Source: an uncultured Pseudanabaenaceae cyanobacterium (lineage in GTDB: Bacteria > Cyanobacteriota > Cyanobacteriia > PCC-9006 > JAAUQQ01). From it: a stretch of DNA of 64,000 nt. The translations under genes and the position numbers were made by a program. The stretch lies in assembly GCA_938017515.1 (NCBI GenBank), contig CALIJJ010000060.1, positions 18,633-82,632 on the forward strand, in the 5' to 3' direction. Shown one piece after another: positions 4,474 through 64,000 of the stretch (its first letter is position 1; every line of letters begins with the position of its first letter). The notes under the pieces are model-generated. The model was not told the DNA's origin. It made no database searches and saw nothing but the letters and a program-made list of their open reading frames with translations.

Positions 4474-5910
4474 CTAGCGCCCGAGCTGGTTCTTGATGTC
4501 ACGACAACCACCGGGAATGGTTGCCCGTGACTTTTCGCCGCACCAGGCACAGCAATACTGTCGCTGTTCCTCAGACATGCGTTGCACATTGGTAAAGTCC
4601 ACATCCTCCACCACCGTCCCCGTACGCTCTCCCGTGGTGTAATTGGGGGCTTCAGTGCGGCTGCGGGGGGAGGCTGTGTCCACAGGTCCGTAGTGGAGTC
4701 GGACTCCCATGATGTCGGCGCTATTGAGGTTGGCGCCGTAGAGAATGGTCCGCGACAAATTGGACTTGACCAGGTCCGCGCCGCGCAGGTCGCAGTAGAT
4801 GAGATTCGCCTCGCTCAGATCGATCCAGCGCAAATCGGTGCGGGAGAGGGTGGCCTTGGCCAACATGACTCCGATATCAATGACGCGTACGCCAGCAATG
4901 CGATCTTCTTCGTAACCCCCCTTGCCATCGAGAATGGCACGACCCAGGTGGCCATCGCGCTTGAGCGGGGTCAGTAGCTTGGAGCGAGCCAAAAAGCGAA
5001 TGACTTTGGCTTTACCGTCGGCGTTGACACTGCTGAGGATGGCGGCGGTGCGGCCCTCGGCGATCGCCCGTTCCTGGGGCCAATCCTCCAACAGACCTTC
5101 CTCATCCAGCACCAAATCCGAAATGCCCTGGAAATAGGCATCGATGGTTTGCTGCTGGGTAATCATGTTCTGCTGAATGGTCAGCTGGTTTTGCTGCTCC
5201 GTCAGAATCTTGGAAATGATGTATTGCCGCCAGGCGATGTACACCGCCAGAACCGCGATGAAAATCTGGCCCACAGCGCCGAGCGTATCACCGACGGCAC
5301 CGACGGCATCCCAATTGACTCCTGTGCGCAGGAAGCGAATGGTTTCGTCGCCAAAACCGGTGAACTGGACCGTTGCTGCGATCGATATCCCAATGCCTAG
5401 GAACGCAATAAACGGCGCCCCCCACTTATCCACCAGCAGCTCTTTGCTGATATCTCGGAGCTCTGGCCAGATCAGTCGGATTGACATCACCAGCGCCATA
5501 ACGGCACCCACCCAGCCCAACCAAGGCAAGCGCAGAATCATGCCCACCAGCGTGAGCACAATGGCAATGAGGATCAGAGGGGTCAGATTGGGCCGAGCTT
5601 CAACGGCATCTCGGCGTTGCCGAAGGACTTCCTCCAGCATGGATTCCGTCGCCATTTGCAGATTGCCCTGGTAACCCAAGGTTTGGGTATGGCGAATGTC
5701 GCTGATATCGGCCCAGCCCTGGCTAAAGCTTTCGGGGTTATAGGGTTCGGGATTATAGCCGCCGTTGCCATAGCCTGGACTGTTGCCCGCACTGGACAAG
5801 CCAGGACGGGTTGTATTCGAATCCGGGCCGCTACTGGAGCTGTTATTCGTCGGCGAATTAAGAGGACCGTTTTGCATAGGGAGCGCGCTCGAAAAGGGGC
5901 GGTATGGCAA
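4474..5910 (-). CDS. membrane-anchored pentapeptide-repeat protein
   Basis: 478 aa. The N-terminus is low-complexity (Asn/Ser/Pro/Gly). Several TM segments follow (LILIAIVLTLVGMILRL, GAVMALVMSIRLIW, FIAFLGIGISIAATV, IFIAVLAVYIAW). The C-terminus has classic A(D/N)LXX repeats (TDLRWIDLSEANLIYCDLRGADLVKSNLSRTILYGANLNSADIMG). The true start may be an internal Met. Confidence 0.8.
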   Translation of the reverse strand: MPYRPFSSALPMQNGPLNSPTNNSSSSGPDSNTTRPGLSSAGNSPGYGNGGYNPEPYNPESFSQGWADISDIRHTQTLGYQGNLQMATESMLEEVLRQRRDAVEARPNLTPLILIAIVLTLVGMILRLPWLGWVGAVMALVMSIRLIWPELRDISKELLVDKWGAPFIAFLGIGISIAATVQFTGFGDETIRFLRTGVNWDAVGAVGDTLGAVGQIFIAVLAVYIAWRQYIISKILTEQQNQLTIQQNMITQQQTIDAYFQGISDLVLDEEGLLEDWPQERAIAEGRTAAILSSVNADGKAKVIRFLARSKLLTPLKRDGHLGRAILDGKGGYEEDRIAGVRVIDIGVMLAKATLSRTDLRWIDLSEANLIYCDLRGADLVKSNLSRTILYGANLNSADIMGVRLHYGPVDTASPRSRTEAPNYTTGERTGTVVEDVDFTNVQRMSEEQRQYCCAWCGEKSRATIPGGCRDIKNQLGR

Positions 5911-52924: not shown

Positions 52925-53989
52925 TCAGTTTTGTTCGTTGGTCGGCCCAAGCTGGGCTTGGACGAGGGCTGGGAATCCTGGATATTCGCTAAGGGGTTTG
53001 CCTAGTCGGAGATTCAGGTGCGGACATTGGGCACGAAGCTGATGTTCTAGCTCCTGAAGGCGTTGGGCGATCGCATCGGTGAGTCCCCCCTCGAACAGAA
53101 AGTAGGGCAATACCTCAATGGTGAGATGGGTCGCCCTGTTTGTCCCCGTCCCAGGAATAGGGTGAGCTTGACCCGGCTGTCCCGGTACATTTTTCTCGGG
53201 TTGAATCGCTGTATTGTTTTGCCCCTGCTCCGCGAGTTGCTGCTGTACGACACTTTGGATTTGCTGAGACAAGCTTTCTGGCTTGACCCAGTAGGCCACA
53301 GGCAGACCCAGGCGATCGCCCAGGGCCTGAATATGCTCACTTGCCCCCGTTCGACGACTGCCGTGGGCCATCAAAATTTGAAATGTTTTGCTGCTGCTGG
53401 AAGTCGTCAAGACTGATGTTGAGCCCAGGAGTGTGGCCATAGCCTGGTGTTGGCTGCCGAGGTAGGGCAATACGTCTATCTCAACTCCCTGATAGCGAGC
53501 GTCTTCGGCAAGCGCGCGCTTGGCTTGTTCCACTTCCGCGGGAATGTCCTCCATGACATGGACACCCGGTAGCAAGAACAGGGGCAGAATCTTGAGGCAG
53601 CTCCCCGCGCTCAACTTGCAGTGGTGGACGAAGTCTTGAATCTGTTGGTGGAGTGCTGTGGGTCCTAGCTCCAAAACTGCTGTGCCGATCTGGAGCGCTG
53701 TGCTTTGGTTTTGGGGACGCAGGATGGCAAGTTGACCTTCCGATTTAGAGGTACTTTGCAGGGAAGGACTGGGCCGTGAAGGACTGCTCAGGTCTGAGTC
53801 CAGGGGAGGATGGGCATTGCCCGAACCAGAGGACGTCTGAAGATGATGAACCAGGGCCTGAGCCCCCTGCTCGGAGCGTGGGTCACGACTGCCATGGGTG
53901 ACCAGCAAATAAGCCGTGGAAGACTTTTCATCCTTGGCTGGGGAAGACATTGCTTGGGAAGGTCTCGTTTGGGAAGGCATCGCACACAT
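52925..53989 (-). CDS. cbiX: sirohydrochlorin chelatase CbiX (two-domain form)
   Basis: 354 aa. The two CbiX halves each have the (L/M)xHGSR motif (LLVTHGSRDPRSEQGAQAL and ILMAHGSRRTGASEHIQAL). A Ser/Pro-rich insert lies in the first half. Confidence 0.85.
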   Translation of the reverse strand: MCAMPSQTRPSQAMSSPAKDEKSSTAYLLVTHGSRDPRSEQGAQALVHHLQTSSGSGNAHPPLDSDLSSPSRPSPSLQSTSKSEGQLAILRPQNQSTALQIGTAVLELGPTALHQQIQDFVHHCKLSAGSCLKILPLFLLPGVHVMEDIPAEVEQAKRALAEDARYQGVEIDVLPYLGSQHQAMATLLGSTSVLTTSSSSKTFQILMAHGSRRTGASEHIQALGDRLGLPVAYWVKPESLSQQIQSVVQQQLAEQGQNNTAIQPEKNVPGQPGQAHPIPGTGTNRATHLTIEVLPYFLFEGGLTDAIAQRLQELEHQLRAQCPHLNLRLGKPLSEYPGFPALVQAQLGPTNEQN

Positions 53990-54757: not shown

Positions 54758-56740
54758 CTAATCCCGATGGAACCCTAAATATCCCCGGGGTGTGATGAGC
54801 CAGTTCTGATGATTGAGCGTGCTGGCGTTGCCAATGAGAACCGTGGTCAACATATCGATGGTTGAGTCGAGTAGGGCTCCCAGTGTTGTGATCGTAATTT
54901 GTTCGGTCTCTCGATAGGCGGATTGAACCAGTGCAACCGGTGTCTCGGGGTTGCGGTGTTCAAGGAAAATGCTTTGGGCTGTTTCGATTTGTGTGAGACG
55001 CGTTTTGGACTTGGGATTGTAGAGTGCCACCACAAAATCTGCTTGGGCAGCCGCTCGCAGCCGCTTTTCGATCATCTCCCAGGGCGTTAGCAGATCGCTG
55101 AGGCTGATGGCACAAAAGTCATGCATCAGCGGTGTACCCACTCGGGCGGCGGCGGCTTGCAGCGCTGTGATACCTGGATAGACTTGGACGCTGGGGCTGG
55201 CCCCATCCCAACCGGCTTGGCTGAGGCTTTCCATCACGAGTCCCGCCATGCCATAGATGCCGCTGTCGCCGGAGGAGATCACCGCGACAGAGAGTCCCCA
55301 ATGGGCCAGTGCGATGGCCCGTTCTGCCCGGGCGCGTTCCTGGGTGATGGGCAGGGCTTCGACGATTTGGCCGGGGCGTAGTAAGGGACGAATCAGATCG
55401 ATGTAGAGGGAGTAGCCAATTACCGCATCCACTGCTGCGATCGCCCCCTTGGCTGCGGGAGTCATCTGATTCAAAGCGCCGGGGCCAATTCCCACTAGGG
55501 CAAGATGCCCTGGGCGTCCCGTGTATTCCGTTTGAGCTTGGGCGATGGCAACGGTCACAGCCCCCGGCTCACCCTCCAGCCGGTGAATTTGTTTTGTGAC
55601 CTGTAGTTTCGGGGCCTGTAATTGGGGAGATTCTGATGGGTCTGATGTTGCTGCTGCGATCGCAGCGGCTTCCGAAACACTGGGGGTTCCAACCTCAGCC
55701 AACACGACGTCGGAGGGCGTGGGCACAGGAATGTCGCGCAGTGTTTCTGCCGTAAAGCATCGTAGGGGCCAGTCTCGGGCTTCGCATAGGTCTAGTAGCC
55801 CCGCTTCATCGGCTTTGAGGTCGAGGGAGGCAATGCCTGCGATCGCTCCCTCGGCGAAGTGGCTGGCTTGGCAGGTGCGGGCGATCGCGGTTTCAATCAA
55901 GTGCCGGGAGCTGCCTCGCTCACAGCCGATCCCCACCCACAGCACCCGAGGATGCCACTGGACCTTGGCACTGGTGGCTTCAAACTTGCGCTGGGTTGCA
56001 CTAATCCAGATCCGGGCTTGGGGGTCTGGTGCCTCAGTGGGCTGTTCCGTTTGTTCTTTTGATGAGTCCTCTGATGGCTTTTGGGTTGCCCCGGCTGTTG
56101 ACGCTTCCGAGAAGCCGAACTGAAACGGATGACCTGCGGGGAGATGGGCTTGCCAGAGGGGCGATCCGGCATCTTGGAGGACTTGGACTGGCTTGCCCTG
56201 GGCAATGGTGGCGCTGACGCTGGTCCAGTTGCCGCTGCCCCGATGCCAGCCAAAGGGGTTGCCCAGAATGTCGATGCCGGGCAGATCTTGCTGAGCCGAT
56301 GCGCCGGTAATGATGGGGGTTGCCCCGAGTTGTGTGGCGACTAAGCGGGCGAGCTGATCCGCACCGCCCTGGTGACCGCCACAAAGGCTGATGACATAGT
56401 CTCCAGATGCGTCAACAACAATGATGGCTGGGTCTGTGGCCTTGTCTTGCAGCAGGGGAGCGATGAGGCGAGTGGTTGCGCCCGCCGCGAGGCAAAAGAT
56501 AAAGGCGCGATGGTGGGGCCAGAGGGTGGCGAGATGATCGCTCAGTGAGCCCGCATAGGTTTGGATGTGGCTATCGGCGGCACCATCGCTGGAGGGATTG
56601 GAACGATCGTGGTGCTGGAGAGACGGCGGAACCCAAACGGGAACTGCAGATTGAATGAGGGGATGTAGGGTTTTGAGGGCCTGGGGAGTGGTGGCGATCG
56701 CCGCCATGGGCCAGCCAGTTTTAGACGCAAAATCGAGCAC
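54758..56740 (-). CDS. cobJ: bifunctional cobalt-precorrin-5A hydrolase (CbiG) / precorrin-3B C17-methyltransferase (CobJ/CbiH)
   Basis: 660 aa. The N-terminal two thirds are CbiG-like (ATTRLIAPLLQDKATDPAIIVVD ... IASLDLKADEAGL). The C-terminal third is a tetrapyrrole methylase (HLALVGIGPGALNQMTPAA ... VAVISSGDSGIYGMAGLVME). Confidence 0.88.
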   Translation of the reverse strand: MLDFASKTGWPMAAIATTPQALKTLHPLIQSAVPVWVPPSLQHHDRSNPSSDGAADSHIQTYAGSLSDHLATLWPHHRAFIFCLAAGATTRLIAPLLQDKATDPAIIVVDASGDYVISLCGGHQGGADQLARLVATQLGATPIITGASAQQDLPGIDILGNPFGWHRGSGNWTSVSATIAQGKPVQVLQDAGSPLWQAHLPAGHPFQFGFSEASTAGATQKPSEDSSKEQTEQPTEAPDPQARIWISATQRKFEATSAKVQWHPRVLWVGIGCERGSSRHLIETAIARTCQASHFAEGAIAGIASLDLKADEAGLLDLCEARDWPLRCFTAETLRDIPVPTPSDVVLAEVGTPSVSEAAAIAAATSDPSESPQLQAPKLQVTKQIHRLEGEPGAVTVAIAQAQTEYTGRPGHLALVGIGPGALNQMTPAAKGAIAAVDAVIGYSLYIDLIRPLLRPGQIVEALPITQERARAERAIALAHWGLSVAVISSGDSGIYGMAGLVMESLSQAGWDGASPSVQVYPGITALQAAAARVGTPLMHDFCAISLSDLLTPWEMIEKRLRAAAQADFVVALYNPKSKTRLTQIETAQSIFLEHRNPETPVALVQSAYRETEQITITTLGALLDSTIDMLTTVLIGNASTLNHQNWLITPRGYLGFHRD

Positions 56741-56992
56741 AGAGGTCTGTTAAAAGGAGGACTTCGTCATTATCGCAGTGCAGCTTAGAGCGATCGCCTG
56801 ATTACTTCAAATTGCAACTTATTTCGGCATCTCTATATAGAATGAGGTTTAGCCCGTAAGGCTTCCAAGCCCATTCCATCGCGAGATTGGGCGAGATTGT
56901 CTAGCGCTTTACCCCGGTCTGTTTCAGTACAAAGGCTGTTCATTATAAGAGCGGTTAATTGTAGTTTTGTCATCAACCTATATGGATATTGC

Positions 56993-57796
56993 ATGACTGT
57001 TATCACTGCGGTTCAAAAAGGCAACGAAATTTCCATTGCTTGTGATACCCAGACGACTAGCAGTGACCTGCGCTATAAGGTCACGGCGGCTTATCGGGCC
57101 AATTCCAATAAGCTTCTGACCTATGGTGACAATATTCTGGGCCATTCCGGTAGCAATGCCATCAAGCAAATTCTGGAAGCCCTGTTTCGGGAAGATAGCG
57201 ATGCCCCTGCGTTGGCCTCTCGCGACGAAATTTTTCAATGGCTCCTCGCGATTCAGCCTGAACTTAAGGAGACCTATCTGATCAAGCCCTCAGGGGATAG
57301 CAAAAATCAGCCCGTGGAATCCAATCAGGTCAGCATTGCCCTCGTGGTTAATCCCCATGGCATCTTTAGCCTGAACGGCTACCGGGAGGTCAATGAGTTT
57401 CTCAAATTCTGGGCGATTGGTAGCGGCCAGCATTTTGCGCTGGGGGCGATGCAGGCCGTGTACGATTTGGACTTCTCTGCCGCTCAGATTGCAGAGGCAG
57501 GCGTTTTGGCTGCGACGGAGTTTTGCCCCTACTCGGCTAAGCCGGTTCAGGTGAAAACGATTCAACGGGCTCAGATTTCGGAGGAACGTTCAGGGTCCAA
57601 GGCGGTCGCAAAAAAAGCGGCATCTCCCCAAAAAACAGCAGCTAAAAAAGTGACGGCTAAAAAAGCAACGGCTAAAAAGGCTGCATCCCAAGCAACGCCA
57701 GCCAAAAAAGCAACGGCTAAAAAAGCAGCGGCCAAAAAAACAACGACCAAAAAAACGGCTGCGAAGCAGACCATCCGTAAGGGAGCGATCCGCTAG
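56993..57796 (+). CDS. HslV/proteasome-beta-like Ntn (Thr) peptidase domain fused to a histone-H1-like Lys/Ala-rich tail
   Basis: From ATG 56993. MTVITAVQKGNEISIACDTQTT aligns by eye with the HslV N-terminus (Thr after Met). NSNKLLTYGDNILGHSGS matches the Lys33 region, and WAIGSGQHFALGAM matches the GSG motif. The C-terminal roughly 65 aa are AKKA/TAKK repeats. Confidence 0.7.
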   Translation: MTVITAVQKGNEISIACDTQTTSSDLRYKVTAAYRANSNKLLTYGDNILGHSGSNAIKQILEALFREDSDAPALASRDEIFQWLLAIQPELKETYLIKPSGDSKNQPVESNQVSIALVVNPHGIFSLNGYREVNEFLKFWAIGSGQHFALGAMQAVYDLDFSAAQIAEAGVLAATEFCPYSAKPVQVKTIQRAQISEERSGSKAVAKKAASPQKTAAKKVTAKKATAKKAASQATPAKKATAKKAAAKKTTTKKTAAKQTIRKGAIR

Positions 57797-57859: not shown

Positions 57860-59596
57860 CTACAAACGTTGGATGGAGCGGTGGGGATGAAGCGGTGGGG
57901 AGATCGGGGTATGAAGGTCCAGCGATCGCACCTCGCTCCCCTCAATCCTTCGAATCCGGTGATTATTGGTATCTGCAATCAACAAGCTGTCTTCCCAGTG
58001 CCCCATCCCCGACGGTTCCGCGAACATGGCCGCTGAATCTAGGCCATCCCGGTATCCGGCTTGTCCTGTGCCATGGTGGGTTTGGCAATCGCCTGTGTTG
58101 GGATTGACGCGCTTGATGCGGTGGTTGTAAGTGTCGGCGACCCAGAGAAATCCTTGGTGGTAGCTCAAGCCGAGACAGTGTTGGAGCCGTACGTCTTCGC
58201 CGCTTCCGTCGCGATCGCCCCAGCCAAACAACATGCCGCTGCCACACACCGTACGCACTTGGGGATTTTTGCCGAGTTCGACCGCGCCGAGCCCAACTGC
58301 GCGAATGGAGCTGGTCTCTGCATCCGCCACAAATAGCTCGTTCCCATCTGTCGCTAACCCACTGGGTTGGGCGAATGCTGCCCTGAGCAGTGCGCCGTCG
58401 GCCCAGCCTTCCGCACCGCTGCCTGCGTAGGTTTCGCATTGGCCACTCTCCAACGCCAGTCGCCAAATTTGATGGGTTCCGGCCATGGCAATGAACAGGT
58501 GACGGTCCACCAAGGCCAAATCCCAGGGAGAATTCAGCGCCACGGCTTTGGCTTGGCCGCCGTGGGGGTGGAGAAACCGACTCTGCTGTCCGGTACCTGC
58601 GATTGTCCTGACCTGTGGCCCTTGGGCTGACAGCTGTCCTGGGGGCTCTTGCGACTCTGCTTGCATTTCTGTTTGCCAATTCAAAACGCGTACGACATGA
58701 TTGCCGGAATCAGCGATGTAAAGCTGCTGGGTGGCATCGTCCCAGGCCATTCCCTGGGGATAGCAAAATTGAGCGCGATGGCCGGGACCATCCGTCCAAC
58801 CTGATGCCCCCGTTCCGATGCTGTCGATCCATTGGCCGGTCAGGGTTGTGATGACGATGCGGTGATTGCTGGAGTCCGCGATGAACAGATAGGGCTGTTC
58901 TGCATGGTTCGGTTGAGCCACGCAGATGTTCCCAGGGAAAGATAGTTCCCTGGGAGAGGAGGCGCTAAGGCCACTATTGCTGCTCCGTTCGCAGTGCCGA
59001 GTGGGTTCTGGCAGCCTACTTATCTGGCTTGTGTTGGTCGGGTTTGTGCTGGTCGGGTTTGTGATGGCTGGGCTTGTATTGCTCGGGGTGGTGCCGGACC
59101 CACCCGCATTTTGACTGAGTAATTTGCTGATCAGCGCCGAGATTTTTTCCCCACGCCCTTCGCCGACGAATTGGCCTGCGATGTAGCCCCTGGCGTCAAT
59201 GACAACGACGGTTGGCCAGGCTCGAATTGCGTACTGTTGCCAGACCTGGAAATCGCGATCGCACAAAACCGGATGTCGGATGCCGTAGCGCCGCAGGGCC
59301 TGTTGCACCTGGGCTGGCTCCGCTTCATGGTCAAACTTTGCGGAGTGAATGCCGAGGAGCGTGATGCGATCGCCATAGGTTGCTTCCAGTGCCGCTAGCT
59401 CCGGCAACATATGGAGGCAGTTGATGCAGCCATAGGTCCAAAAATCGAGCACCACAATTCCTCCCCGCAATTCAGCCAAAGAAAGACCCCCCACAGAGCA
59501 CTCCTCAGACCGCTGTGAGGGGATTGCTGTAGAGGGTTCTTCTCCAGATGTCATGAGCCACTGAGCATCACTGGGAAATTCAGGGGCACGGACCAT
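57860..59596 (-). CDS. thioredoxin-fold (TlpA/AhpC-TSA-like) plus NHL-repeat beta-propeller protein (NHLRC2-like)
   Basis: 578 aa. VVLDFWTYGCINCLHMLPEL (CxxC), a Thr/Ser/Pro/Asn linker, then repeated NHL-type units (YIADSGNHVVRV, FVADAETSSIRAV, WVADTYNHRIKRV, LIADTNNHRIRRI). Confidence 0.85.
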   Translation of the reverse strand: MVRAPEFPSDAQWLMTSGEEPSTAIPSQRSEECSVGGLSLAELRGGIVVLDFWTYGCINCLHMLPELAALEATYGDRITLLGIHSAKFDHEAEPAQVQQALRRYGIRHPVLCDRDFQVWQQYAIRAWPTVVVIDARGYIAGQFVGEGRGEKISALISKLLSQNAGGSGTTPSNTSPAITNPTSTNPTNTSQISRLPEPTRHCERSSNSGLSASSPRELSFPGNICVAQPNHAEQPYLFIADSSNHRIVITTLTGQWIDSIGTGASGWTDGPGHRAQFCYPQGMAWDDATQQLYIADSGNHVVRVLNWQTEMQAESQEPPGQLSAQGPQVRTIAGTGQQSRFLHPHGGQAKAVALNSPWDLALVDRHLFIAMAGTHQIWRLALESGQCETYAGSGAEGWADGALLRAAFAQPSGLATDGNELFVADAETSSIRAVGLGAVELGKNPQVRTVCGSGMLFGWGDRDGSGEDVRLQHCLGLSYHQGFLWVADTYNHRIKRVNPNTGDCQTHHGTGQAGYRDGLDSAAMFAEPSGMGHWEDSLLIADTNNHRIRRIEGSEVRSLDLHTPISPPLHPHRSIQRL

Positions 59597-59617: not shown

Positions 59618-62600
59618 TTAGGAACCGAAGATGTCAGCAGCCTTGGCGGTGTCGCGCTTTTCCTGAATGCCGCTGCTGCCAAAGATATCGCGGGCATTTT
59701 CCTTATTGGGGATATCAGGATCGAGGGTCTTTAGCTCACGCTCGAAGCGCTCAAAGGCCTTGTCGAAGTTGACCTCCGGTTCCTCGGTGGTGGATTTTGG
59801 GGTGGAGGATTTCTTGGTAGAGGGCTTTTGCTGAGCGGTTTTTTCTGACTGCTTCGTTGACGATGACTGAGATGCCGTTTCCGATTTCTCTGCTGTGTCC
59901 TTGGTCGTTATGTCTGAAGACTTGGGTTTGCTCTTTTGAGTTGTGCTGTCTTTGCGTCCCAAGAAATCAAAGAAAGAGGATTGCTTTTTCTCTGAAACCT
60001 GTTTCTGTCCCGTGGTTGTCTTAGGGGTAGCTGTGGCAGATGTTTTGCTGCTATCGGCAGCTTTTGCTGTTGGCAAGGGCTGGGTTGTGTCAGCCTTCTT
60101 CGTTGCTTCAGTCTGCTTAGAAGAATTTGCCGTTGCTTTAGCCTTCGGCTGAGTCTCAGTCTTGGGCTTCGCCGCTGGTGGGATGGCTGTTTTGTTCTCA
60201 GGTAACTTGCTCTCAGGTAACTTGCTCTCGGGGACCTTGCTCCGCTTGCCAAAGAAATCAAAGGCAGAATTCTGCTTTGGTTTTGCTTCTGGATTGGTTT
60301 TGGCTGCAGGACTCGTTTTTGGGGCTGTGTCTATAGGTTTCTTCTCGGTTTTGGCCGCTGGAGCAGTGGTTTTGGTTGCTGGAGCAGTGGTTTTGGGAGC
60401 TGTTGTTGCTTTGGGGGCGGGAGCACTAGGCACGACAGGCTTAGGTGTGGGAGCTGTCGCTGCTTTTGGAGCCGGGGGAGCGACTTTGGGGGCCGTTACG
60501 GGCTTTGGAGCCTGAGGGGCTTTTGGTTGAACTGCTGCTGGGGCAGGGCTCTCTGGTGCCTTGGCCGCTGGCTTTGCGGGGGCTTGCTGCCAGAAGGGTT
60601 TTGGACTGCTGCTCGGCTTTGGAGCGGCTTTGGGAGTGACGGGTAAGGGGGCTGCAGGCTTAGGGGCGAGCCGTTGGGGCGGTGCTTTTTGGGGGCTAGG
60701 CTGCACCGGCTTTGCCATGGGAACCGCAGGCGAGGCCTGAGGCTTGGCTGCTGGCGTGATGCCTGTGGCCGGAGCTGGTTTGTTCGGAAGCGCAGACTTC
60801 TTCAGATCTTTAGATACAGGGGGCTTCAGGTCGCTCGGTGCCTTCCCACTATTCGGAGTTTTGACTTCTTTAGGTGTGTTTGCTTTGGTAGGTGTGTTTG
60901 CCTTGGGCTGTTGGAAGCGTTGCCAGAATGGCTTGCTGTCCGACTTGGCTTGAGGTGCTGGGTTGGTTTTCTTTGTTTCGGGTTTCACGGCCTCTGATTT
61001 CACCTGGGCTGCTTCTGGAGCCTTGGTTGATGCTTGAGGCGCTGGCGTCACATTGTTGGGTTTGGCAGGGGTTGGTTTGGCAGGGGTTGGTTTGGCAGGG
61101 GCTTTCGTCACCGCAGAAACGGGCTTCTCAGCTTTTTCGGCCTTGGGTGCTGTCAGAGATTGAGGCGCTTCCATCGGCTTGGATGGCGGAGTCACGATGG
61201 GCTTATTGGTTTCGTCTGACTGGAATCGTTGCCAAAACGGTTTCTTCTCTGGCGTTGCGGGCTTCTCCGCTTTTTGAGTCCTTGGCTGGGTCGTCGGTTG
61301 AGTGGCAGTTGTGGGTGGGCTGATAGGCTTTTTCGCCGTTGGCTTTGCTGCCTCGACTTTCTTGGGCTCGATTTTTTGAGCCTCAGGCTTCTTAATCTCA
61401 GGCTTTGTAACGACCGGAGCTTTGACCGTGGGTGGCTTCGCTGCGGGTTGCTTGGTTTCGGGCTTGATGACGGTCGGCTTCACCGTTGGTGTTGGAACGG
61501 AGCGAGGTTGGGCCGCTGGTGCGATCGCGGGAGTGCTTGGGAGAGGTGCCTTTTCGGATTTTGGTGCCGTCAAATCCGTTGGAACGCCTTGGGGTTTTGA
61601 GGGAGGCGTGACAATGGGCTTGTTCTCGGTTGATTGGAATCGCTTCCAGAATGGCTGTTTCTCAGCTTTCTGATTCTCAGCTTTCTGCTCCGTCTTAGGC
61701 TCGACTTTCGATGCAGAGGGGGATTGCTTTTCTAAAGCCTTATCGTTTGTGAGTTTTGCCGGTGCCTTGGTTGCTGGTTTGGCGTCCGCTGGCTTGGGGG
61801 GGATTGGCTTGGCTTCGGTTTTCTTCGCTGGAGGTGTGATCGCAGGCGCCACCGAAGGTTCTGGAACAGGAGGTATAACGACGGGTTTGGGTGCAGCCGC
61901 TGGTTTCTTCTCAGCCTGAGTTACTTTGCCGGGTTCGACCTGCTTGCTAGCCCCTTTCTGAATATCAGGTTTTGGCGCAATGGCCTTGGGCGCAGTGGGT
62001 TTGGGAGCTACTGGCTTGGGCGCTACTGGCTTGGGCGCAGTTGCTTTTTGGCTGGGGGTGACTGGCTTTGTTTCCCTAGTTTTTGTTTCGCCAGTTTTTG
62101 CTTTCTCAGATTTTGATTCGCCAGTTTTTGTTTCGCCGGTCTTCGCTTTGTTGGCAGGGGAGACCTTTGGCGTTGCAGCAGGAGTCGTCTCGGACTGCTT
62201 GCCGAAACGTTTCCAGAACGGAGTTTTCTCCGACTTCGTTTCTGCTTTTACTGCTTCTTTTTTCGTGGGGGTTGGTTTGGGAGTGGTTGGCTGGGTCTCG
62301 ATCTTCTTCGCTGGAGGTGCGATCGCAGGCGCCACCGAAGGTGCTGGAACAGGAGGAATGACGACGGGTTTGGGTGCAACCGCTGGTTTCTTCTCAGCCT
62401 GAGTTGCTTTGCCGGGGTCGACCTGCTTGCTAGCCCCTTTCTGAATATCAGGTTTTGGCGCAATGGCCTTGGGCGCAGTGGGCTTAGGTGCTACTGGCTT
62501 AGGTGCTACTGGCTTAGGTGCTACTGGCTCAGGTGCAGTCGCTTTTTGGCTGGGGGTGACTGGCTTTGTTGCACTAGTTTTTGTTTCGCCAGTTTTTGCT

Positions 62601-64000
62601 TTCTCAGATTTTGTTTCGCCAGTTTTTGTTTCGTCGGTCTTCGCTTTGTTGGTAGGGGAGACCTTTGGAGCTTCAGCGGGAGTGGCCTCGGTTTTCTTGC
62701 CGAAGCGTTTCCAGAACGGAGTCGTCTCTGTTTGGGCGTCTTCCTTCTTCGTTGATTTGGGTTGGGTGGGGTTTACTGCGGGCTTAGCCTCGGTATCCCT
62801 TGAAGTCTTGCTTTCCGCTTTTGGGCTTGCCTGTTGCTGTGATGCTGAAGGCTTCGATTCTGAAGGCTTTTTCGCGTCCTGAATTTTTGACGTATCGAGC
62901 GGTGGGGATTCTAGCTTGGGAGCAACCTTGGGTTTTGGAGCGGAAGGTGCCGGAGAAATCTTTGGGGCGATCGGTGCAGGAATCGGAACGGGGACGATGG
63001 GAGGAATGGCTTTACTGCCGGATGCATCGTTCTGCGGCTGAGCTTCGGATGGCTGGACTTCGGATGGCTGAGCTTCGGATGGCTTAGACGCTGGCTTTAC
63101 GCCTTGACTCGGCGCAATTCTTTCGGCAGGTGCCTTATCTGCTGGGAGCTTGGGTGCTTCGGGGGCTGGTTCAGGTTCTGCGTAAATGGGAGGTACGTAG
63201 TCTGGATCAACGATGCCGAGGGCATTCTTGAGGGAAATCTGGTTGCGTGATAGCCGTGCCAGAGGCTCCTGACCGTCGGGCTGATAGTCGATGAGGCTCA
63301 CGCCTGTGTTGAAGACATTGTTAACAACGTCGCCATTTTCATCGAGAAATTCTAGCTTCAGCCAGTTCTTTCCCTTTTTGAATCCCTTTAGGTAGATGGG
63401 CTGCCAGCGATCGAGCAAAAAGCTCTCCCCATTGATCGTGCAGCGAATCCGCCAATCCGCCACGTCTTCCTCATCCTTGGCCACAAAGTGGAGAGGGGCA
63501 TTCGTCAGATAGTAATCCAGCAGAATGGGCTCTGCACCGTAGTGACCCCGAGGGCGGCTGTAGGTAATCAGCGGCAGGTTGGGATCGGGGATGTTGGTCT
63601 GGGTTTGGGTGAAAACGTGAAACGTTTGCTGAACGTAGGCACCTTCATTTTTGAAGCTTTCATCCCAAGGGCGCGCTGCAAAGGCCCGAAGGGTATGGCT
63701 ACCGGGTTCTAAGTCTTCGATGATGAGGGGCTGGCTCAGGTCGTAGAGCTCACTGTGAAACTTGTCATCGATAAACACATCGATGTGGGGGCCAAGGCCC
63801 AGTCGTTCGTCTTTAAACAGCTTCAAGTCTGAGAGTTTGAGGCGAACTTCAACACGGTTATCATCCAGCACTGTGTTGGCTTTGGGGCTAATGACCTGAA
63901 GCTGGGGCTGGTTGTCTGCGAGCGATCGCCGTAACTCTTGAATGACGGCTGGGGTCGAGACCTCTGAAATACTGCTACGCCGACTCTCCGGTTGAAGAGC
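59618..64000 (-). CDS. giant Pro/Lys/Ala/Thr-rich repeat protein with folded N-terminal domain (5-prime end outside window)
   Basis: The track ORF starts at GTG 63871, but the frame stays open to base 64000, so the N-terminus is probably beyond the window. About 270 aa of ordinary-composition sequence (63100-63900) is followed by about 1150 aa of low-complexity repeats. These contain six PFW(K/Q)(R/Q) motifs (PFW(K/Q)RF in five) and two FDF(F/L)G motifs. Confidence 0.8.
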   Translation of the reverse strand, partial: ALQPESRRSSISEVSTPAVIQELRRSLADNQPQLQVISPKANTVLDDNRVEVRLKLSDLKLFKDERLGLGPHIDVFIDDKFHSELYDLSQPLIIEDLEPGSHTLRAFAARPWDESFKNEGAYVQQTFHVFTQTQTNIPDPNLPLITYSRPRGHYGAEPILLDYYLTNAPLHFVAKDEEDVADWRIRCTINGESFLLDRWQPIYLKGFKKGKNWLKLEFLDENGDVVNNVFNTGVSLIDYQPDGQEPLARLSRNQISLKNALGIVDPDYVPPIYAEPEPAPEAPKLPADKAPAERIAPSQGVKPASKPSEAQPSEVQPSEAQPQNDASGSKAIPPIVPVPIPAPIAPKISPAPSAPKPKVAPKLESPPLDTSKIQDAKKPSESKPSASQQQASPKAESKTSRDTEAKPAVNPTQPKSTKKEDAQTETTPFWKRFGKKTEATPAEAPKVSPTNKAKTDETKTGETKSEKAKTGETKTSATKPVTPSQKATAPEPVAPKPVAPKPVAPKPTAPKAIAPKPDIQKGASKQVDPGKATQAEKKPAVAPKPVVIPPVPAPSVAPAIAPPAKKIETQPTTPKPTPTKKEAVKAETKSEKTPFWKRFGKQSETTPAATPKVSPANKAKTGETKTGESKSEKAKTGETKTRETKPVTPSQKATAPKPVAPKPVAPKPTAPKAIAPKPDIQKGASKQVEPGKVTQAEKKPAAAPKPVVIPPVPEPSVAPAITPPAKKTEAKPIPPKPADAKPATKAPAKLTNDKALEKQSPSASKVEPKTEQKAENQKAEKQPFWKRFQSTENKPIVTPPSKPQGVPTDLTAPKSEKAPLPSTPAIAPAAQPRSVPTPTVKPTVIKPETKQPAAKPPTVKAPVVTKPEIKKPEAQKIEPKKVEAAKPTAKKPISPPTTATQPTTQPRTQKAEKPATPEKKPFWQRFQSDETNKPIVTPPSKPMEAPQSLTAPKAEKAEKPVSAVTKAPAKPTPAKPTPAKPNNVTPAPQASTKAPEAAQVKSEAVKPETKKTNPAPQAKSDSKPFWQRFQQPKANTPTKANTPKEVKTPNSGKAPSDLKPPVSKDLKKSALPNKPAPATGITPAAKPQASPAVPMAKPVQPSPQKAPPQRLAPKPAAPLPVTPKAAPKPSSSPKPFWQQAPAKPAAKAPESPAPAAVQPKAPQAPKPVTAPKVAPPAPKAATAPTPKPVVPSAPAPKATTAPKTTAPATKTTAPAAKTEKKPIDTAPKTSPAAKTNPEAKPKQNSAFDFFGKRSKVPESKLPESKLPENKTAIPPAAKPKTETQPKAKATANSSKQTEATKKADTTQPLPTAKAADSSKTSATATPKTTTGQKQVSEKKQSSFFDFLGRKDSTTQKSKPKSSDITTKDTAEKSETASQSSSTKQSEKTAQQKPSTKKSSTPKSTTEEPEVNFDKAFERFERELKTLDPDIPNKENARDIFGSSGIQEKRDTAKAADIFGS
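61821..62723. repeat. near-identical tandem duplication of about 0.5 kb inside the giant gene
   Basis: 61821-62225 and 62304-62723 align almost base for base, at offset 483 nt. The offset becomes 498 nt after an extra 15-nt GGCTTAGGTGCTACT-type unit in the second copy. Confidence 0.85.

What the first reader, a model, noticed from the sequence alone, without database searches (positions are those of the whole stretch)
56993..57796. Orphan HslV/proteasome-beta-like threonine peptidase fused to a histone-H1-like KA-rich tail
Seen in sequence:
- The product starts MTVITAVQKGNEISIACDTQTT.
- It keeps, by eye alignment to E. coli HslV, the N-terminal Thr nucleophile (after Met removal), a Lys at the Lys33-equivalent position (NSNKLLTY) and the GSG motif (WAIGSGQHFALGAM).
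- The last roughly 65 residues are AKKA/TAKKA repeats of the kind that bind DNA or other polyanions in histone H1, AlgP and bacterial H1-like proteins.

No hslU, no Anbu-type operon partners (ATP-grasp, transglutaminase, alpha-E) and no proteasome alpha subunit gene lie nearby.

Inference: this is a self-compartmentalising Ntn peptidase tethered to the nucleoid, RNA or polyphosphate. I do not recognise this architecture as described. The track ORF is also 32 codons too long.
Basis: partly seen in the sequence, partly recalled or inferred. Interest (0 to 1): 0.65.

Follow-up and report, generated by a model that had tools for sequence, protein, structure and literature searches.

The report
BPH peptidase with histone-like basic tail
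This cyanobacterial gene encodes a member of the known but functionally unexplained BPH family of barrel-forming proteasome relatives, here carrying a long, disordered, lysine-rich tail that probably sticks the enzyme to DNA, RNA or polyphosphate.

Summary
Window 56993..57796 (+) is a 267-codon gene under strong purifying selection (core dN/dS 0.068). It has an N-terminal Thr, Asp18, Lys40, Gly53 and Gly-Ser-Gly 143-145, followed by a 77-residue tail with net charge +22.

The N-domain is more specific than "HslV/proteasome-like". It belongs to BPH, the bacterial proteasome homolog crystallised in 2017:
- phmmer gives E 1.3e-33 to Cupriavidus BPH, against 0.003 to HslV.
- Foldseek's top six hits are all BPH chains (target-normalised TM-score 0.84-0.90).

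BPH is already known to form 14-mers, to lack an unfoldase partner and to occur in cyanobacteria. "Orphan" is therefore the family norm.

What I did not find described is the subclade. It is a cyanobacterial Thr-type BPH whose pore loop has lost the family's acidic character. Its basic tail appears ancestral: 18 of 18 tailed relatives are basic, and one nested subclade seems to have lost the tail.

The tail evolves by 15-nt repeat slippage. Lys/Arg positions and a terminal T-x-R-K motif are kept. Short basic tails arose at least 11 further times elsewhere in BPH.

Polyanion tethering (DNA, RNA or polyphosphate) is the best reading of the tail, but it is inferred, not shown.

Verdict: a new variant of a known kind, of moderate interest.

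The parts
56993..57796 (+). Complete coding sequence, 267 aa plus stop: BPH-family peptidase with a basic C-terminal tail
   Evidence: An exact copy is in public assemblies. Core dN/dS against ortholog L084 is 0.068.
56993..57565 (+). BPH / proteasome-beta-like Ntn-hydrolase core, residues 1-191
   Evidence: phmmer gives E 1.3e-33 to 5ovu and 3.5e-27 to 5ovs. Much of the AF2 core has pLDDT near or above 90. Foldseek's top hits are 5ovt, 5ovs and 5ovu, E 4e-18, target TM 0.84-0.90.
56996..56998 (+). Thr2 codon: the N-terminal nucleophile once the start Met is removed
   Evidence: This column is Thr or Ser in all 26 aligned relatives. Met removal and Thr1 as nucleophile were shown for Cm-BPH and Td-BPH in PMC5777263.
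57044..57046 (+). Asp18 codon, equivalent to Asp17
   Evidence: Invariant in alignment A1. Role taken from PMC5777263.
57110..57112 (+). Lys40 codon, equivalent to proteasome Lys33 and Td-BPH Lys37
   Evidence: Invariant in A1. It aligns to the Lys of 'NQK' in Cm-BPH.
57149..57151 (+). Gly53 codon, the oxyanion-hole Gly (Td-BPH Gly50)
   Evidence: Invariant in A1. Role.
57281..57328 (+). Pore loop, residues 97-112 (IKPSGDSKNQPVESNQ). Net charge 0, where proteobacterial BPHs carry -4 to -6
   Evidence: Charge table. Residues 105-110 have pLDDT below 50. The loop is described as long, flexible and acidic in PMC5777263.
57419..57427 (+). Gly143-Ser144-Gly145. The Ser corresponds to Td-BPH Ser139, which hydrogen-bonds Thr1
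   Evidence: Invariant in A1. Role.
57566..57793 (+). Intrinsically disordered polycationic tail, residues 192-267. Counted from residue 191 it has net charge +22
   Evidence: Composition. pLDDT below 50. Sub-threshold Pfam HC2 match. Basic tails occur in all 18 tailed relatives of the clade.
57630..57754 (+). Imperfect tandem repeat of 15 nt (one xAKKx pentapeptide), 8.3 copies, with a 45-nt super-period
   Evidence: Tandem Repeats Finder. A near-identical strain variant, P0180, has one extra ATAKK unit. There is a 48-nt in-frame indel against L084.
57770..57793 (+). C-terminal end TIRKGAIR, carrying the clade-wide T-[TI]-R-K-[RKG] motif
   Evidence: The motif lies within the last 4-14 residues of 16 of 18 tails.
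56925..56992 (+). Conserved non-coding leader or promoter region directly upstream of the start codon
   Evidence: Alignment to L084. Substitutions are not codon-periodic. No Rfam match and no sigma-70 consensus.

Best explanation
The gene encodes a BPH-family peptidase. BPH is the bacterial proteasome homolog, an HslV-derived relative of the proteasome beta subunit.

**Shown here**
- The fold, the family assignment and the full catalytic set: Thr1 after Met removal, Asp17, Lys33-equivalent, oxyanion Gly and Ser of G-S-G.
- Strong purifying selection on the core.
- The true start codon.
- No unfoldase gene in the window.
- A conserved, disordered, polycationic C-terminal tail.

**Inferred from the two crystallised BPHs**
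- It assembles into a homo-14-mer double ring with the active sites inside.
- It works without ATP.

**Inferred from composition and analogues**
- The 14 tails, about +300 charges per particle, project from the outside of the barrel.
- They act as a multivalent electrostatic tether to a cellular polyanion: nucleoid DNA, RNA or ribosomes, or polyphosphate granules.
- This would concentrate the peptidase where basic, polyanion-bound proteins or peptides sit.

The tail grows and shrinks by slippage of 15-nt repeat units. Selection keeps the spacing of Lys/Arg and a short terminal T-x-R-K motif. It also keeps the tail nearly free of the bulky hydrophobic residues that a hydrophobic S1 pocket would favour. 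That may protect it from self-digestion; this last point is speculative.
For: **Family**
- phmmer gives E 1.3e-33 to 5ovu and 3.5e-27 to 5ovs over the whole core. HslV scores 0.003.
- The NCBIfam HslV equivalog scores 35.9 bits against a cut-off of 137.
- The Foldseek top six are all BPH chains, target TM 0.84-0.90. HslV follows at about 0.7.
- Catalytic columns are invariant.
- Core dN/dS is 0.068.

**Context**
- There is no unfoldase or Anbu partner in the 64 kb.
- No neighbour gene is conserved across 15 cyanobacterial loci.
- BPH is reported to lack a partner, and cyanobacteria to lack HslV.

**Tail is real and selected**
- It is present in the same frame in four independent assemblies.
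- 18 of 18 tailed clade members are basic (30-65% Lys+Arg) although they use different repeat units: TAKKA, ASKST, GQKT and TTRK.
- Between the window and L084, 15 of 16 Lys/Arg positions are kept while overall tail identity is 25/45.
- In the NJ tree the tail sits on all basal branches of the clade.
- At least 11 further independent basic tails occur elsewhere in BPH. Among 41 representatives with extensions of 10 aa or more, 20 have net charge +5 or more and one is strongly acidic.

**Accessibility of the C-terminus**
- C-terminally tagged Cm-BPH bound affinity beads.

**Analogue**
- The KPAA-repeat tail of AlgP binds DNA and localises the protein to polyphosphate granules.
Against: - No binding, localisation, oligomer or activity data exist for this protein.
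- The crystallised BPHs were inert on peptides and casein, so even peptidase activity is inferred from active-site geometry and inhibitor labelling of relatives.
- The position of the C-terminus on the 14-mer was not measured here.
- One nested cyanobacterial subclade does without the tail, so the tail is dispensable for whatever the core does.
- The tail's similarity to HC2/H1-like proteins is compositional and below the curated thresholds.
- A tail-only database search found nothing significant.
Confidence: 0.55

Rival explanations
1. The tail is a cis-acting regulatory, gating or assembly element. It folds back onto the acidic barrel or pore of its own or a neighbouring particle, plugging it, activating it or bridging particles, rather than binding an external polyanion.
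For: - The BPH inner surface and pore loop are described as highly acidic.
- The window's core has pI 5.2 and net charge -5.
- The conserved terminal T-x-R-K motif looks more like a docking element than pure charge.
- From general knowledge: the C-terminal tails of HslU insert between HslV subunits and activate them.
- The short basic tails in gammaproteobacterial BPHs co-occur with -4/-5 pore loops.
Against: - In the tailed cyanobacterial clade the pore loop is neutral (0 or -1), not acidic.
- Tail length ranges from 14 to 77 residues and the repeat units differ. That suits non-specific electrostatics better than a fixed docking geometry.
- C-terminal tags on Cm-BPH were accessible from outside.
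Confidence: 0.2
2. The tail is a functionally neutral low-complexity expansion. It would be produced by replication slippage at an A-rich repeat and tolerated because the C-terminus is exposed.
For: - The tail DNA is a 15-nt tandem repeat.
- Copy number differs between near-identical strains.
- There is a 48-nt indel against the nearest ortholog.
- One subclade lacks the tail with no obvious change in the core.
- Tail amino-acid identity is much lower than in the core.
Against: - All 18 tails of the clade are strongly basic even though the repeat units differ.
- Lys/Arg positions are kept 15/16 while the spacer residues change.
- No frameshift or premature stop appears in any tailed ortholog.
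- A terminal motif is conserved at about 50% core identity.
- Extensions across the BPH family are skewed to basic, about 20 strongly basic to 1 strongly acidic.
Confidence: 0.12
3. The tail anchors the particle electrostatically to anionic membranes, that is thylakoid or plasma membrane rich in sulfolipid and phosphatidylglycerol, rather than to nucleic acid or polyphosphate.
For: - The host is a cyanobacterium: photosystem, phycobilisome and ATP-synthase genes and 63 HIP1 sites in the window.
- From general knowledge: polybasic stretches can bind acidic lipids.
Against: - The tail has almost no aromatic or bulky hydrophobic residues to insert into a bilayer.
- Its closest compositional matches are nucleic-acid- and polyphosphate-binding proteins such as HC2, Burkholderia H1-like protein and AlgP.
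- Basic tails also occur on non-photosynthetic gammaproteobacterial BPHs.
Confidence: 0.08
4. It is a genuine HslV whose HslU partner lies elsewhere in the genome.
For: - There are weak C-terminal matches to HslV models and structures.
- HslV is the second-best fold class.
Against: - The HslV equivalog scores 35.9 and 33.7 bits against cut-offs of 137 and 157.75.
- BPH matches are about 30 orders of magnitude better.
- The long pore loop is a BPH feature.
- The literature reports that no cyanobacterium has HslV.
Confidence: 0.02

Closest known systems
BPH, the bacterial (Betaproteobacteria) proteasome homolog. Structures: Cupriavidus metallidurans 5OVU, Thiobacillus denitrificans 5OVS and 5OVT (Fuchs et al., J Biol Chem 2018, PMC5777263; first named by Valas & Bourne 2008, PMC3235984)
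   Same: - Fold: target TM 0.84-0.90.
- 34-36% identity in the Foldseek alignments, and a full-length phmmer match.
- Start Met directly followed by the nucleophile.
- Same catalytic residues.
- Long flexible pore loop.
- Lacks the C-terminal S12/H5 elements.
- No partner ATPase gene and no conserved operon.
- The family is already reported in cyanobacteria.
   Different: - It carries a 77-residue polycationic disordered tail. The 2018 paper does not contain the words lysine or extension, and none of its four uses of 'C-terminal' concerns a tail. The 2021 paper applies 'C-terminal extension' only to a different subfamily (RPC) in the passages shown.
- Its pore loop is neutral instead of the highly acidic loop (-4 to -6) treated as a hallmark.
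- It uses Thr although it is not betaproteobacterial. The 2018 paper stated that all BPHs outside the Betaproteobacteria use Ser.
HslV (ClpQ), the peptidase of the HslUV protease
   Same: - Same superfamily and N-terminal Thr mechanism.
- Double-ring self-compartmentalising design.
- BPH is thought to descend from it.
   Different: - HslV is a dodecamer with a short basic pore loop and depends on the AAA+ HslU encoded next to it.
- Here there is no hslU.
- HslV models score far below threshold.
- HslV structures rank below every BPH chain.
Bacterial histone-H1-like lysine/alanine repeat proteins and tails: Chlamydia Hc2, Pseudomonas AlgP and PhaF, Burkholderia H1-like protein, the PAKKA tail of mycobacterial Ku
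   Same: - Lys/Ala(/Thr/Pro) pentamer-type repeats.
- Intrinsic disorder.
- Repeat-number polymorphism between strains, as reported for Hc2 pentamers (PMC2848022).
- These tails are documented to bind DNA, and for AlgP to associate with polyphosphate granules.
   Different: - The similarity is compositional only: Pfam HC2 33 bits against 40, NCBIfam 31 against 80.
- Those proteins are architectural or DNA-repair proteins.
- I found no example among them of such a tail on a compartmentalised peptidase.
Lon protease bound to DNA or polyphosphate (general knowledge: polyphosphate-Lon degrades free ribosomal proteins during starvation)
   Same: The concept of a cytoplasmic protease brought together with basic substrates on a shared polyanion.
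   Different: - Lon is an unrelated AAA+ Ser-Lys protease, and its binding site lies within folded domains.
- No evidence here links BPH to that pathway. It is a functional analogy only.
CPH, the Cyanobacterial Proteasome Homolog of Fuchs et al. 2021 (PMC8665760)
   Same: - A group I proteasome-like protein radiating from BPH.
- Found in cyanobacteria.
   Different: - The new subfamilies of that study were recovered from the non-significant range (E > 0.002) of PSI-BLAST searches seeded with known members.
- The window protein matches Cm-BPH at E 1e-33, so it sits inside BPH proper.
- A direct comparison with the CPH representative (WP_008185288) was not possible with these tools.

Membership tests
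BPH (bacterial proteasome homolog) | Sequence clusters with crystallised BPHs rather than with HslV, Anbu or the 20S beta subunit | tested here: met
   phmmer gives E 1.3e-33 and 3.5e-27 to 5ovu and 5ovs over residues 2-201. The best HslV scores 0.0029 and 20S beta 0.003.
BPH (bacterial proteasome homolog) | Compact proteasome-beta-like Ntn fold without the S12/H5 C-terminal elements | tested here: met
   The AF2 core is confident in most blocks and ends with strand 186-191. Foldseek's top six hits are BPH chains, target TM 0.84-0.90.
BPH (bacterial proteasome homolog) | Active site: N-terminal Thr or Ser directly after the start Met, Asp17, Lys37 (proteasome Lys33), Gly50, Ser139 | tested here: met
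   Thr2, Asp18, Lys40, Gly53 and Ser144 are all invariant columns in 26 relatives. Residue list from PMC5777263.
BPH (bacterial proteasome homolog) | Elongated pore loop between H2 and the following strand | tested here: met
   The loop is 16 residues (97-112), as long as or one residue longer than in proteobacterial BPHs. The model has low confidence there, as expected for a flexible loop.
BPH (bacterial proteasome homolog) | Highly acidic pore loop and inner cavity | tested here: not met
   Loop net charge is 0 (IKPSGDSKNQPVESNQ). Most proteobacterial BPHs carry -4 to -6. The whole tailed cyanobacterial clade is 0 or -1. The authors stress this trait as distinctive, but it also varies elsewhere in the tree. 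I treat it as a subfamily difference, not an exclusion.
BPH (bacterial proteasome homolog) | Homo-tetradecameric double ring | not testable with these tools
   Only monomer prediction is available. This needs AlphaFold-Multimer, SEC-MALS or EM.
BPH (bacterial proteasome homolog) | No adjacent or co-distributed unfoldase | tested here: met
   No AAA+ unfoldase in the 64-kb window. No conserved neighbour across 15 cyanobacterial loci.
BPH (bacterial proteasome homolog) | Covalent labelling of residue 1 by epoxomicin or MG132 | not testable with these tools
   Biochemical. Shown only for Cm-BPH and Td-BPH.
HslV | Passes the curated HslV equivalog models | tested here: not met
   NF003964 scores 35.9 bits (cut-off 137). 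TIGR03692 scores 33.7 bits (cut-off 157.75).
HslV | hslU encoded alongside | tested here: not met
   None in the window. The literature reports that cyanobacteria lack HslV.
Anbu | Operon with ATP-grasp (COG2308), alpha-E (COG2307) and transglutaminase (COG1305) genes | tested here: not met
   No such domains in the window. No Anbu chain appears among the 50 Foldseek hits listed.
Histone H1-like HC2 / bacterial H1-like DNA-binding proteins | Passes the curated family thresholds | tested here: not met
   Pfam PF07382 scores 33 bits (cut-off 40). NF038053 scores 31.2 (cut-off 80). NF038052 scores 21.7 (cut-off 135). The resemblance is compositional.
Histone H1-like HC2 / bacterial H1-like DNA-binding proteins | Binds DNA or another polyanion | not testable with these tools
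   Needs EMSA or anisotropy with DNA, RNA and polyphosphate.
CPH (Cyanobacterial Proteasome Homolog, 2021) | Clusters with WP_008185288 and apart from BPH | not tested
Indirect argument against membership: the novel subfamilies of that study were detected only among non-significant PSI-BLAST matches to known members, whereas this protein matches Cm-BPH at E 1e-33.

The most novel reading that the evidence does not exclude
The polyanion may be more than an address. It may be the missing cofactor of BPH. On this reading, tail-mediated binding to DNA, RNA or polyphosphate brings basic, polyanion-bound proteins (nucleoid-associated or ribosomal proteins) to the particle and switches on an otherwise inert ATP-independent peptidase.

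This would parallel polyphosphate-Lon. The Thr/Ser-rich tail might also be tunable by phosphorylation.

The recurrent, independent gain of basic tails across BPH would then point to the natural partner of the whole family, whose function has been unknown since 2008.
Probability: 0.15. Interest if true: 0.75.

Novelty: new variant of a known kind. Interest (0 to 1): 0.45.

Why it matters
BPH is one of the few self-compartmentalising protease families in bacteria with solved structures but no known substrate, partner or physiological role. The crystallised members were inert in every assay tried, and the authors proposed an unknown cofactor or delivery factor.

A natural fusion to a histone-H1-like polycationic tail is ancestral in one cyanobacterial clade. 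It was reinvented many times elsewhere in the family. That gives a concrete, cheap hypothesis: look at polyanions and at the basic proteins bound to them.

It also corrects two generalisations about the family:
- Ser as nucleophile in all BPHs outside the Betaproteobacteria.
- An acidic pore loop as a universal trait.

If the tail is only a localisation device or neutral, the finding remains a tidy annotation: a BPH, a corrected start codon and a repeat-driven tail.

Tried and rejected
- **Alignment-based locus search.** The search with the 26-sequence alignment failed for lack of a conserved stretch. It was repeated with the 15-sequence Thr-clade alignment.
- **Tail-only protein search.** No hit at E <= 1e-3. 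I therefore could not tabulate which domain families carry the most similar tails. Only incidental hits from the full-length search are available: L21 and RsfS proteins with lysine/alanine tails.
- **Rfam scan of the gene and its conserved leader.** Nothing found.
- **Promoter and terminator consensus scan.** No sigma-70-type promoter. The terminator-like hits are no more frequent than in shuffles and none sits after the stop codon.
- **Supplement of the 2021 proteasome-homolog paper.** It holds no sequences, so a direct comparison with CPH was impossible.
- **Organism name.** Cluster look-up and contig look-ups give only metagenome assembly records: ENA ERZ6864208 and ERZ6863740, Logan ERR9287626. 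No species representative in the GTDB-based genome collection carries a BPH more than 51% identical.
- **An N-terminal propeptide from the TTG at 56897.** Rejected on substitution pattern and upstream indels.
- **HslV, Anbu and HC2 membership.** Rejected on curated thresholds and gene context.
- **A conserved partner gene.** None found across 15 cyanobacterial loci. Synteny is shared only between close relatives.
Full report
**1. What is in the sequence**

The + strand carries an ATG at 56993 and a TAG ending at 57796, giving a 267-residue product that begins MTVITAVQKGNEISIACDTQTT.

The mechanical ORF list extends the frame to a TTG at 56897 (299 aa, 32 codons longer). I compared the locus with its nearest ortholog, L084, which has the same gene order.
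- The 190-codon core differs at codon positions 1/2/3 by 13/6/73 substitutions, giving dN/dS 0.068.
- The 96 nt upstream of the ATG differ 10/9/8, which is not coding.
- Further upstream there are 25-nt and 6-nt indels.
- Every relative starts Met-Thr or Met-Ser.

The roughly 70 nt just before it are unusually conserved. They match no Rfam family and no sigma-70 consensus.

**2. The N-terminal domain is a BPH**

- Pfam sees only a weak Proteasome match (E 0.0025).
- NCBIfam's HslV equivalogs score 34-36 bits against cut-offs of 137-158.
- Against PDB sequences, the protein matches the "beta-proteobacteria proteasome homologue" of Cupriavidus metallidurans (5ovu, E 1.3e-33, residues 4-201) and Thiobacillus denitrificans (5ovs, E 3.5e-27). 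HslV and the archaeal beta subunit reach only about 0.003.
- An AlphaFold2 model built on 26 relatives has pLDDT near or above 90 over much of the core. Confidence falls around residues 21-40 and in the pore loop.
- Foldseek ranks six BPH chains first (E 4e-18 to 5e-17, target-normalised TM 0.84-0.90). HslV comes next (about 0.7), then 20S beta subunits.
- The residues listed as the BPH active site (Thr1, Asp17, Lys37, Gly50, Ser139; PMC5777263) correspond to Thr2, Asp18, Lys40, Gly53 and Ser144. All are invariant columns in the alignment.

**3. What BPH is known to be**

According to PMC5777263:
- BPH descends from HslV and forms a homo-tetradecameric double ring with internal active sites.
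- It has a long, highly acidic pore loop.
- It is labelled on Thr1 by epoxomicin and MG132, and the start Met is removed.
- It has no identifiable unfoldase and occurs outside the Betaproteobacteria, including in cyanobacteria.
- It was inert on all peptides and on casein, so an unknown cofactor or delivery factor was proposed.

Valas & Bourne (PMC3235984) note that no cyanobacterium has HslV. The 2021 survey (PMC8665760) adds further subfamilies, including a cyanobacterial one (CPH). Those subfamilies were recovered from non-significant PSI-BLAST hits, so a protein matching Cm-BPH at 1e-33 belongs to BPH proper. I found no later functional work on BPH in the library.

"Orphan" is therefore the normal state of the family. 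I confirmed it locally.
- The whole 64-kb window is an ordinary cyanobacterial chromosome stretch with 63 HIP1 sites.
- Its genes include ATP synthase, an ApcE-like linker, an Ndh subunit, CbiX, a CbiG-methylase fusion and a thioredoxin-NHL protein.
- It holds no AAA+ unfoldase, ATP-grasp, transglutaminase, alpha-E or alpha-subunit gene.
- No neighbour is conserved across 15 cyanobacterial BPH loci.

**4. The tail**

*Composition*
- Residues 191-267 contain 20 Lys, 4 Arg, 22 Ala, 10 Thr and only 2 acidic residues. Net charge is +22 and pI 11.7, against pI 5.2 for the core.
- AlphaFold2 predicts the tail disordered.
- It resembles Hc2 and other H1-like proteins only by composition, below the curated thresholds.

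*DNA and evolution*
- The DNA at 57630-57754 is an imperfect 15-nt tandem repeat, one pentapeptide per unit.
- A near-identical strain variant (P0180) has exactly one more ATAKK unit.
- The ortholog in L084 differs by a 48-nt in-frame indel.
- The tail therefore evolves by slippage, as reported for Hc2 pentamers.
- It is nevertheless constrained. Over the last 45 codons the window and L084 share only 25 identical residues, but 15 of 16 Lys/Arg positions are kept.

**5. Distribution**

Searches of the protein database, of one genome per species, and of 1.8 billion cluster representatives gave hundreds of BPHs. There were 172 representatives at E < 1e-30. I extracted the full ORFs and measured the extension beyond the core.

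*The cyanobacterial Thr clade*
- The window protein belongs to a cyanobacterial, Thr-type clade: Phormidesmis, Leptolyngbyaceae and Pseudanabaenaceae MAGs and related marine bins.
- Its pore loop is neutral (net 0 or -1) instead of -4 to -6.
- In this clade 18 sequences carry basic tails of 14-77 residues with 30-65% Lys+Arg and almost no bulky hydrophobic residues.
- The tails are built from different repeat units: TAKKA here, ASKST in Phormidesmis, GQKT and TTRK elsewhere.
- 16 of the 18 share a T-[TI]-R-K-[RKG] motif within the last 4-14 residues.

*Gain and loss*
- In a neighbour-joining tree of 231 cores, the tail is on every basal branch of the clade.
- It is missing from one nested subclade (Leptothoe and relatives).
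- This suggests an ancestral short basic tail, later internal expansions and one loss.

*Elsewhere in BPH*
- Short basic tails appear at least 11 more times on scattered branches, including Ser-type gammaproteobacterial proteins with fully acidic pore loops.
- Among 140 representatives whose match reaches the end of the core profile, 41 have extensions of 10 aa or more. Of these, 20 carry net charge +5 or more and one is strongly acidic.

The window's tail is the longest of those measured. Only the 74-residue Phormidesmis tail carries more net charge (+27).

**6. How it most likely works**

*Shown*
- BPH fold and family, complete catalytic set and purifying selection.
- No partner gene.
- A conserved, disordered, polycationic C-terminal extension.

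*Inferred from the crystallised relatives*
- A 14-mer barrel acting without ATP.
- Thr1 exposed after Met removal.

*Inferred from composition and analogues*
- Fourteen tails, about +300 charges, project outward. C-terminal tags on Cm-BPH were bead-accessible.
- They tether the particle multivalently to DNA, RNA or ribosomes, or polyphosphate.
- The best experimental analogue is AlgP. Its KPAA-repeat tail binds DNA, places the protein on polyphosphate granules and is needed for granule spacing.
- Lys/Ala tails also turned up on ribosomal protein L21 and on RsfS in the homolog search.
- The near absence of bulky hydrophobic residues fits avoidance of self-cleavage by a peptidase with a hydrophobic S1 pocket. 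This is speculation.

*Rivals*
- A cis-acting plug, activator or bridge contacting the acidic barrel. The conserved terminal motif favours it. The neutral pore loop of this clade and the 5-fold length variation count against it.
- A neutral slippage product. The conserved charge pattern and recurrent gains count against it.
- Anchoring to an anionic membrane. The lack of hydrophobic residues counts against it.
- True HslV. Effectively excluded.

**7. Comparison and novelty**

This is a member of a known family (BPH) in a variant form that the three papers I term-searched do not mention. I saw none of their figures or alignments.
- A histone-H1-like tail.
- A neutral pore loop.
- Thr as nucleophile outside the Betaproteobacteria. 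This contradicts the 2018 statement that all such BPHs use Ser. Other Thr-type sequences also lie scattered through the tree.

Lys-rich tails on bacterial proteins are common, so a specialist would not be astonished. The value lies in giving a functionally opaque protease family a testable lead. I rate it a new variant of a known kind, interest about 0.45.

**8. Limits**

- No oligomer prediction, binding, activity or localisation could be tested.
- The exit point of the C-terminus on the 14-mer was not computed.
- The tree is a simple neighbour-joining tree without support values.
- The organism is known only as an uncultured cyanobacterium from metagenome assemblies.

Noticed in passing
window 59618..63871 (-): A 1417-aa ORF, extremely rich in Pro/Ala/Lys/Thr, with many near-identical blocks that each contain a 'PFWKRF(G/Q)' or 'PFWQRF' motif. 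It follows an N-terminal region of about 200 aa. The first 300 residues have no Pfam match. The ortholog in L001 is 1513 aa, so its length is also polymorphic. The gene is syntenic with the BPH gene in L001, L082 and L084.
   Followed up: partly
window 56925..56992 (+): About 70 nt directly upstream of the BPH start codon are more conserved against L084 than the synonymous sites of the gene. Substitutions are not codon-periodic. This may be a promoter or 5' leader element. No Rfam family and no sigma-70 consensus match.
   Followed up: partly
P0180 against window 57630..57754: A near-identical strain variant (272 aa) has exactly one extra ATAKK pentapeptide, one 15-nt unit. A second variant, P0001, differs by a single Ala-to-Ser change in the tail. 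This is repeat-number polymorphism within a population.
   Followed up: yes
Relatives P0016-P0026, L018 and the rest of the NJ tree: Cyanobacterial bins hold two BPH lineages: the Thr-type clade described here and a Ser-type, tail-less one. Thr-type and Ser-type sequences are interleaved across the wider BPH tree. The published rule 'Ser outside Betaproteobacteria' therefore no longer holds.
   Followed up: partly
P0027, P0028, P0030 (ribosomal protein L21) and P0029 (RsfS): Ribosome-associated proteins from other bacteria carry C-terminal xAKKx repeat tails very like this one. They were the only non-BPH hits of the full-length search.
   Followed up: no
window 57571..57774 (-): A 67-aa antisense ORF rich in Phe/Leu/Ala/Val is the mirror image of the Lys/Ala repeat. 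It should not be annotated as a gene.
   Followed up: yes
window 54758..56740 (-): A 660-aa fusion of all three CbiG domains with a tetrapyrrole methylase domain (cobalamin synthesis), divergent from the BPH gene. CbiX lies further on, at 52925..53989. This arrangement is conserved in L001, L082 and L084.
   Followed up: no
window 57860..59596 (-): A 578-aa protein with an N-terminal thioredoxin/AhpC-TSA-like domain followed by NHL repeats. It is convergent with the BPH gene, starting 64 nt after its stop codon, and conserved in that position in the closest relatives only.
   Followed up: no
window 347..3337 (+) and 4474..5910 (-): A 996-aa NACHT-domain NTPase and a 478-aa pentapeptide-repeat protein lie at the far end of the window.
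   Followed up: no
whole window: There are 63 copies of the HIP1 octamer GCGATCGC in 64 kb, a cyanobacterial signature. The species is not among the GTDB species representatives searched; the best BPH match there is 51% identical.
   Followed up: partly
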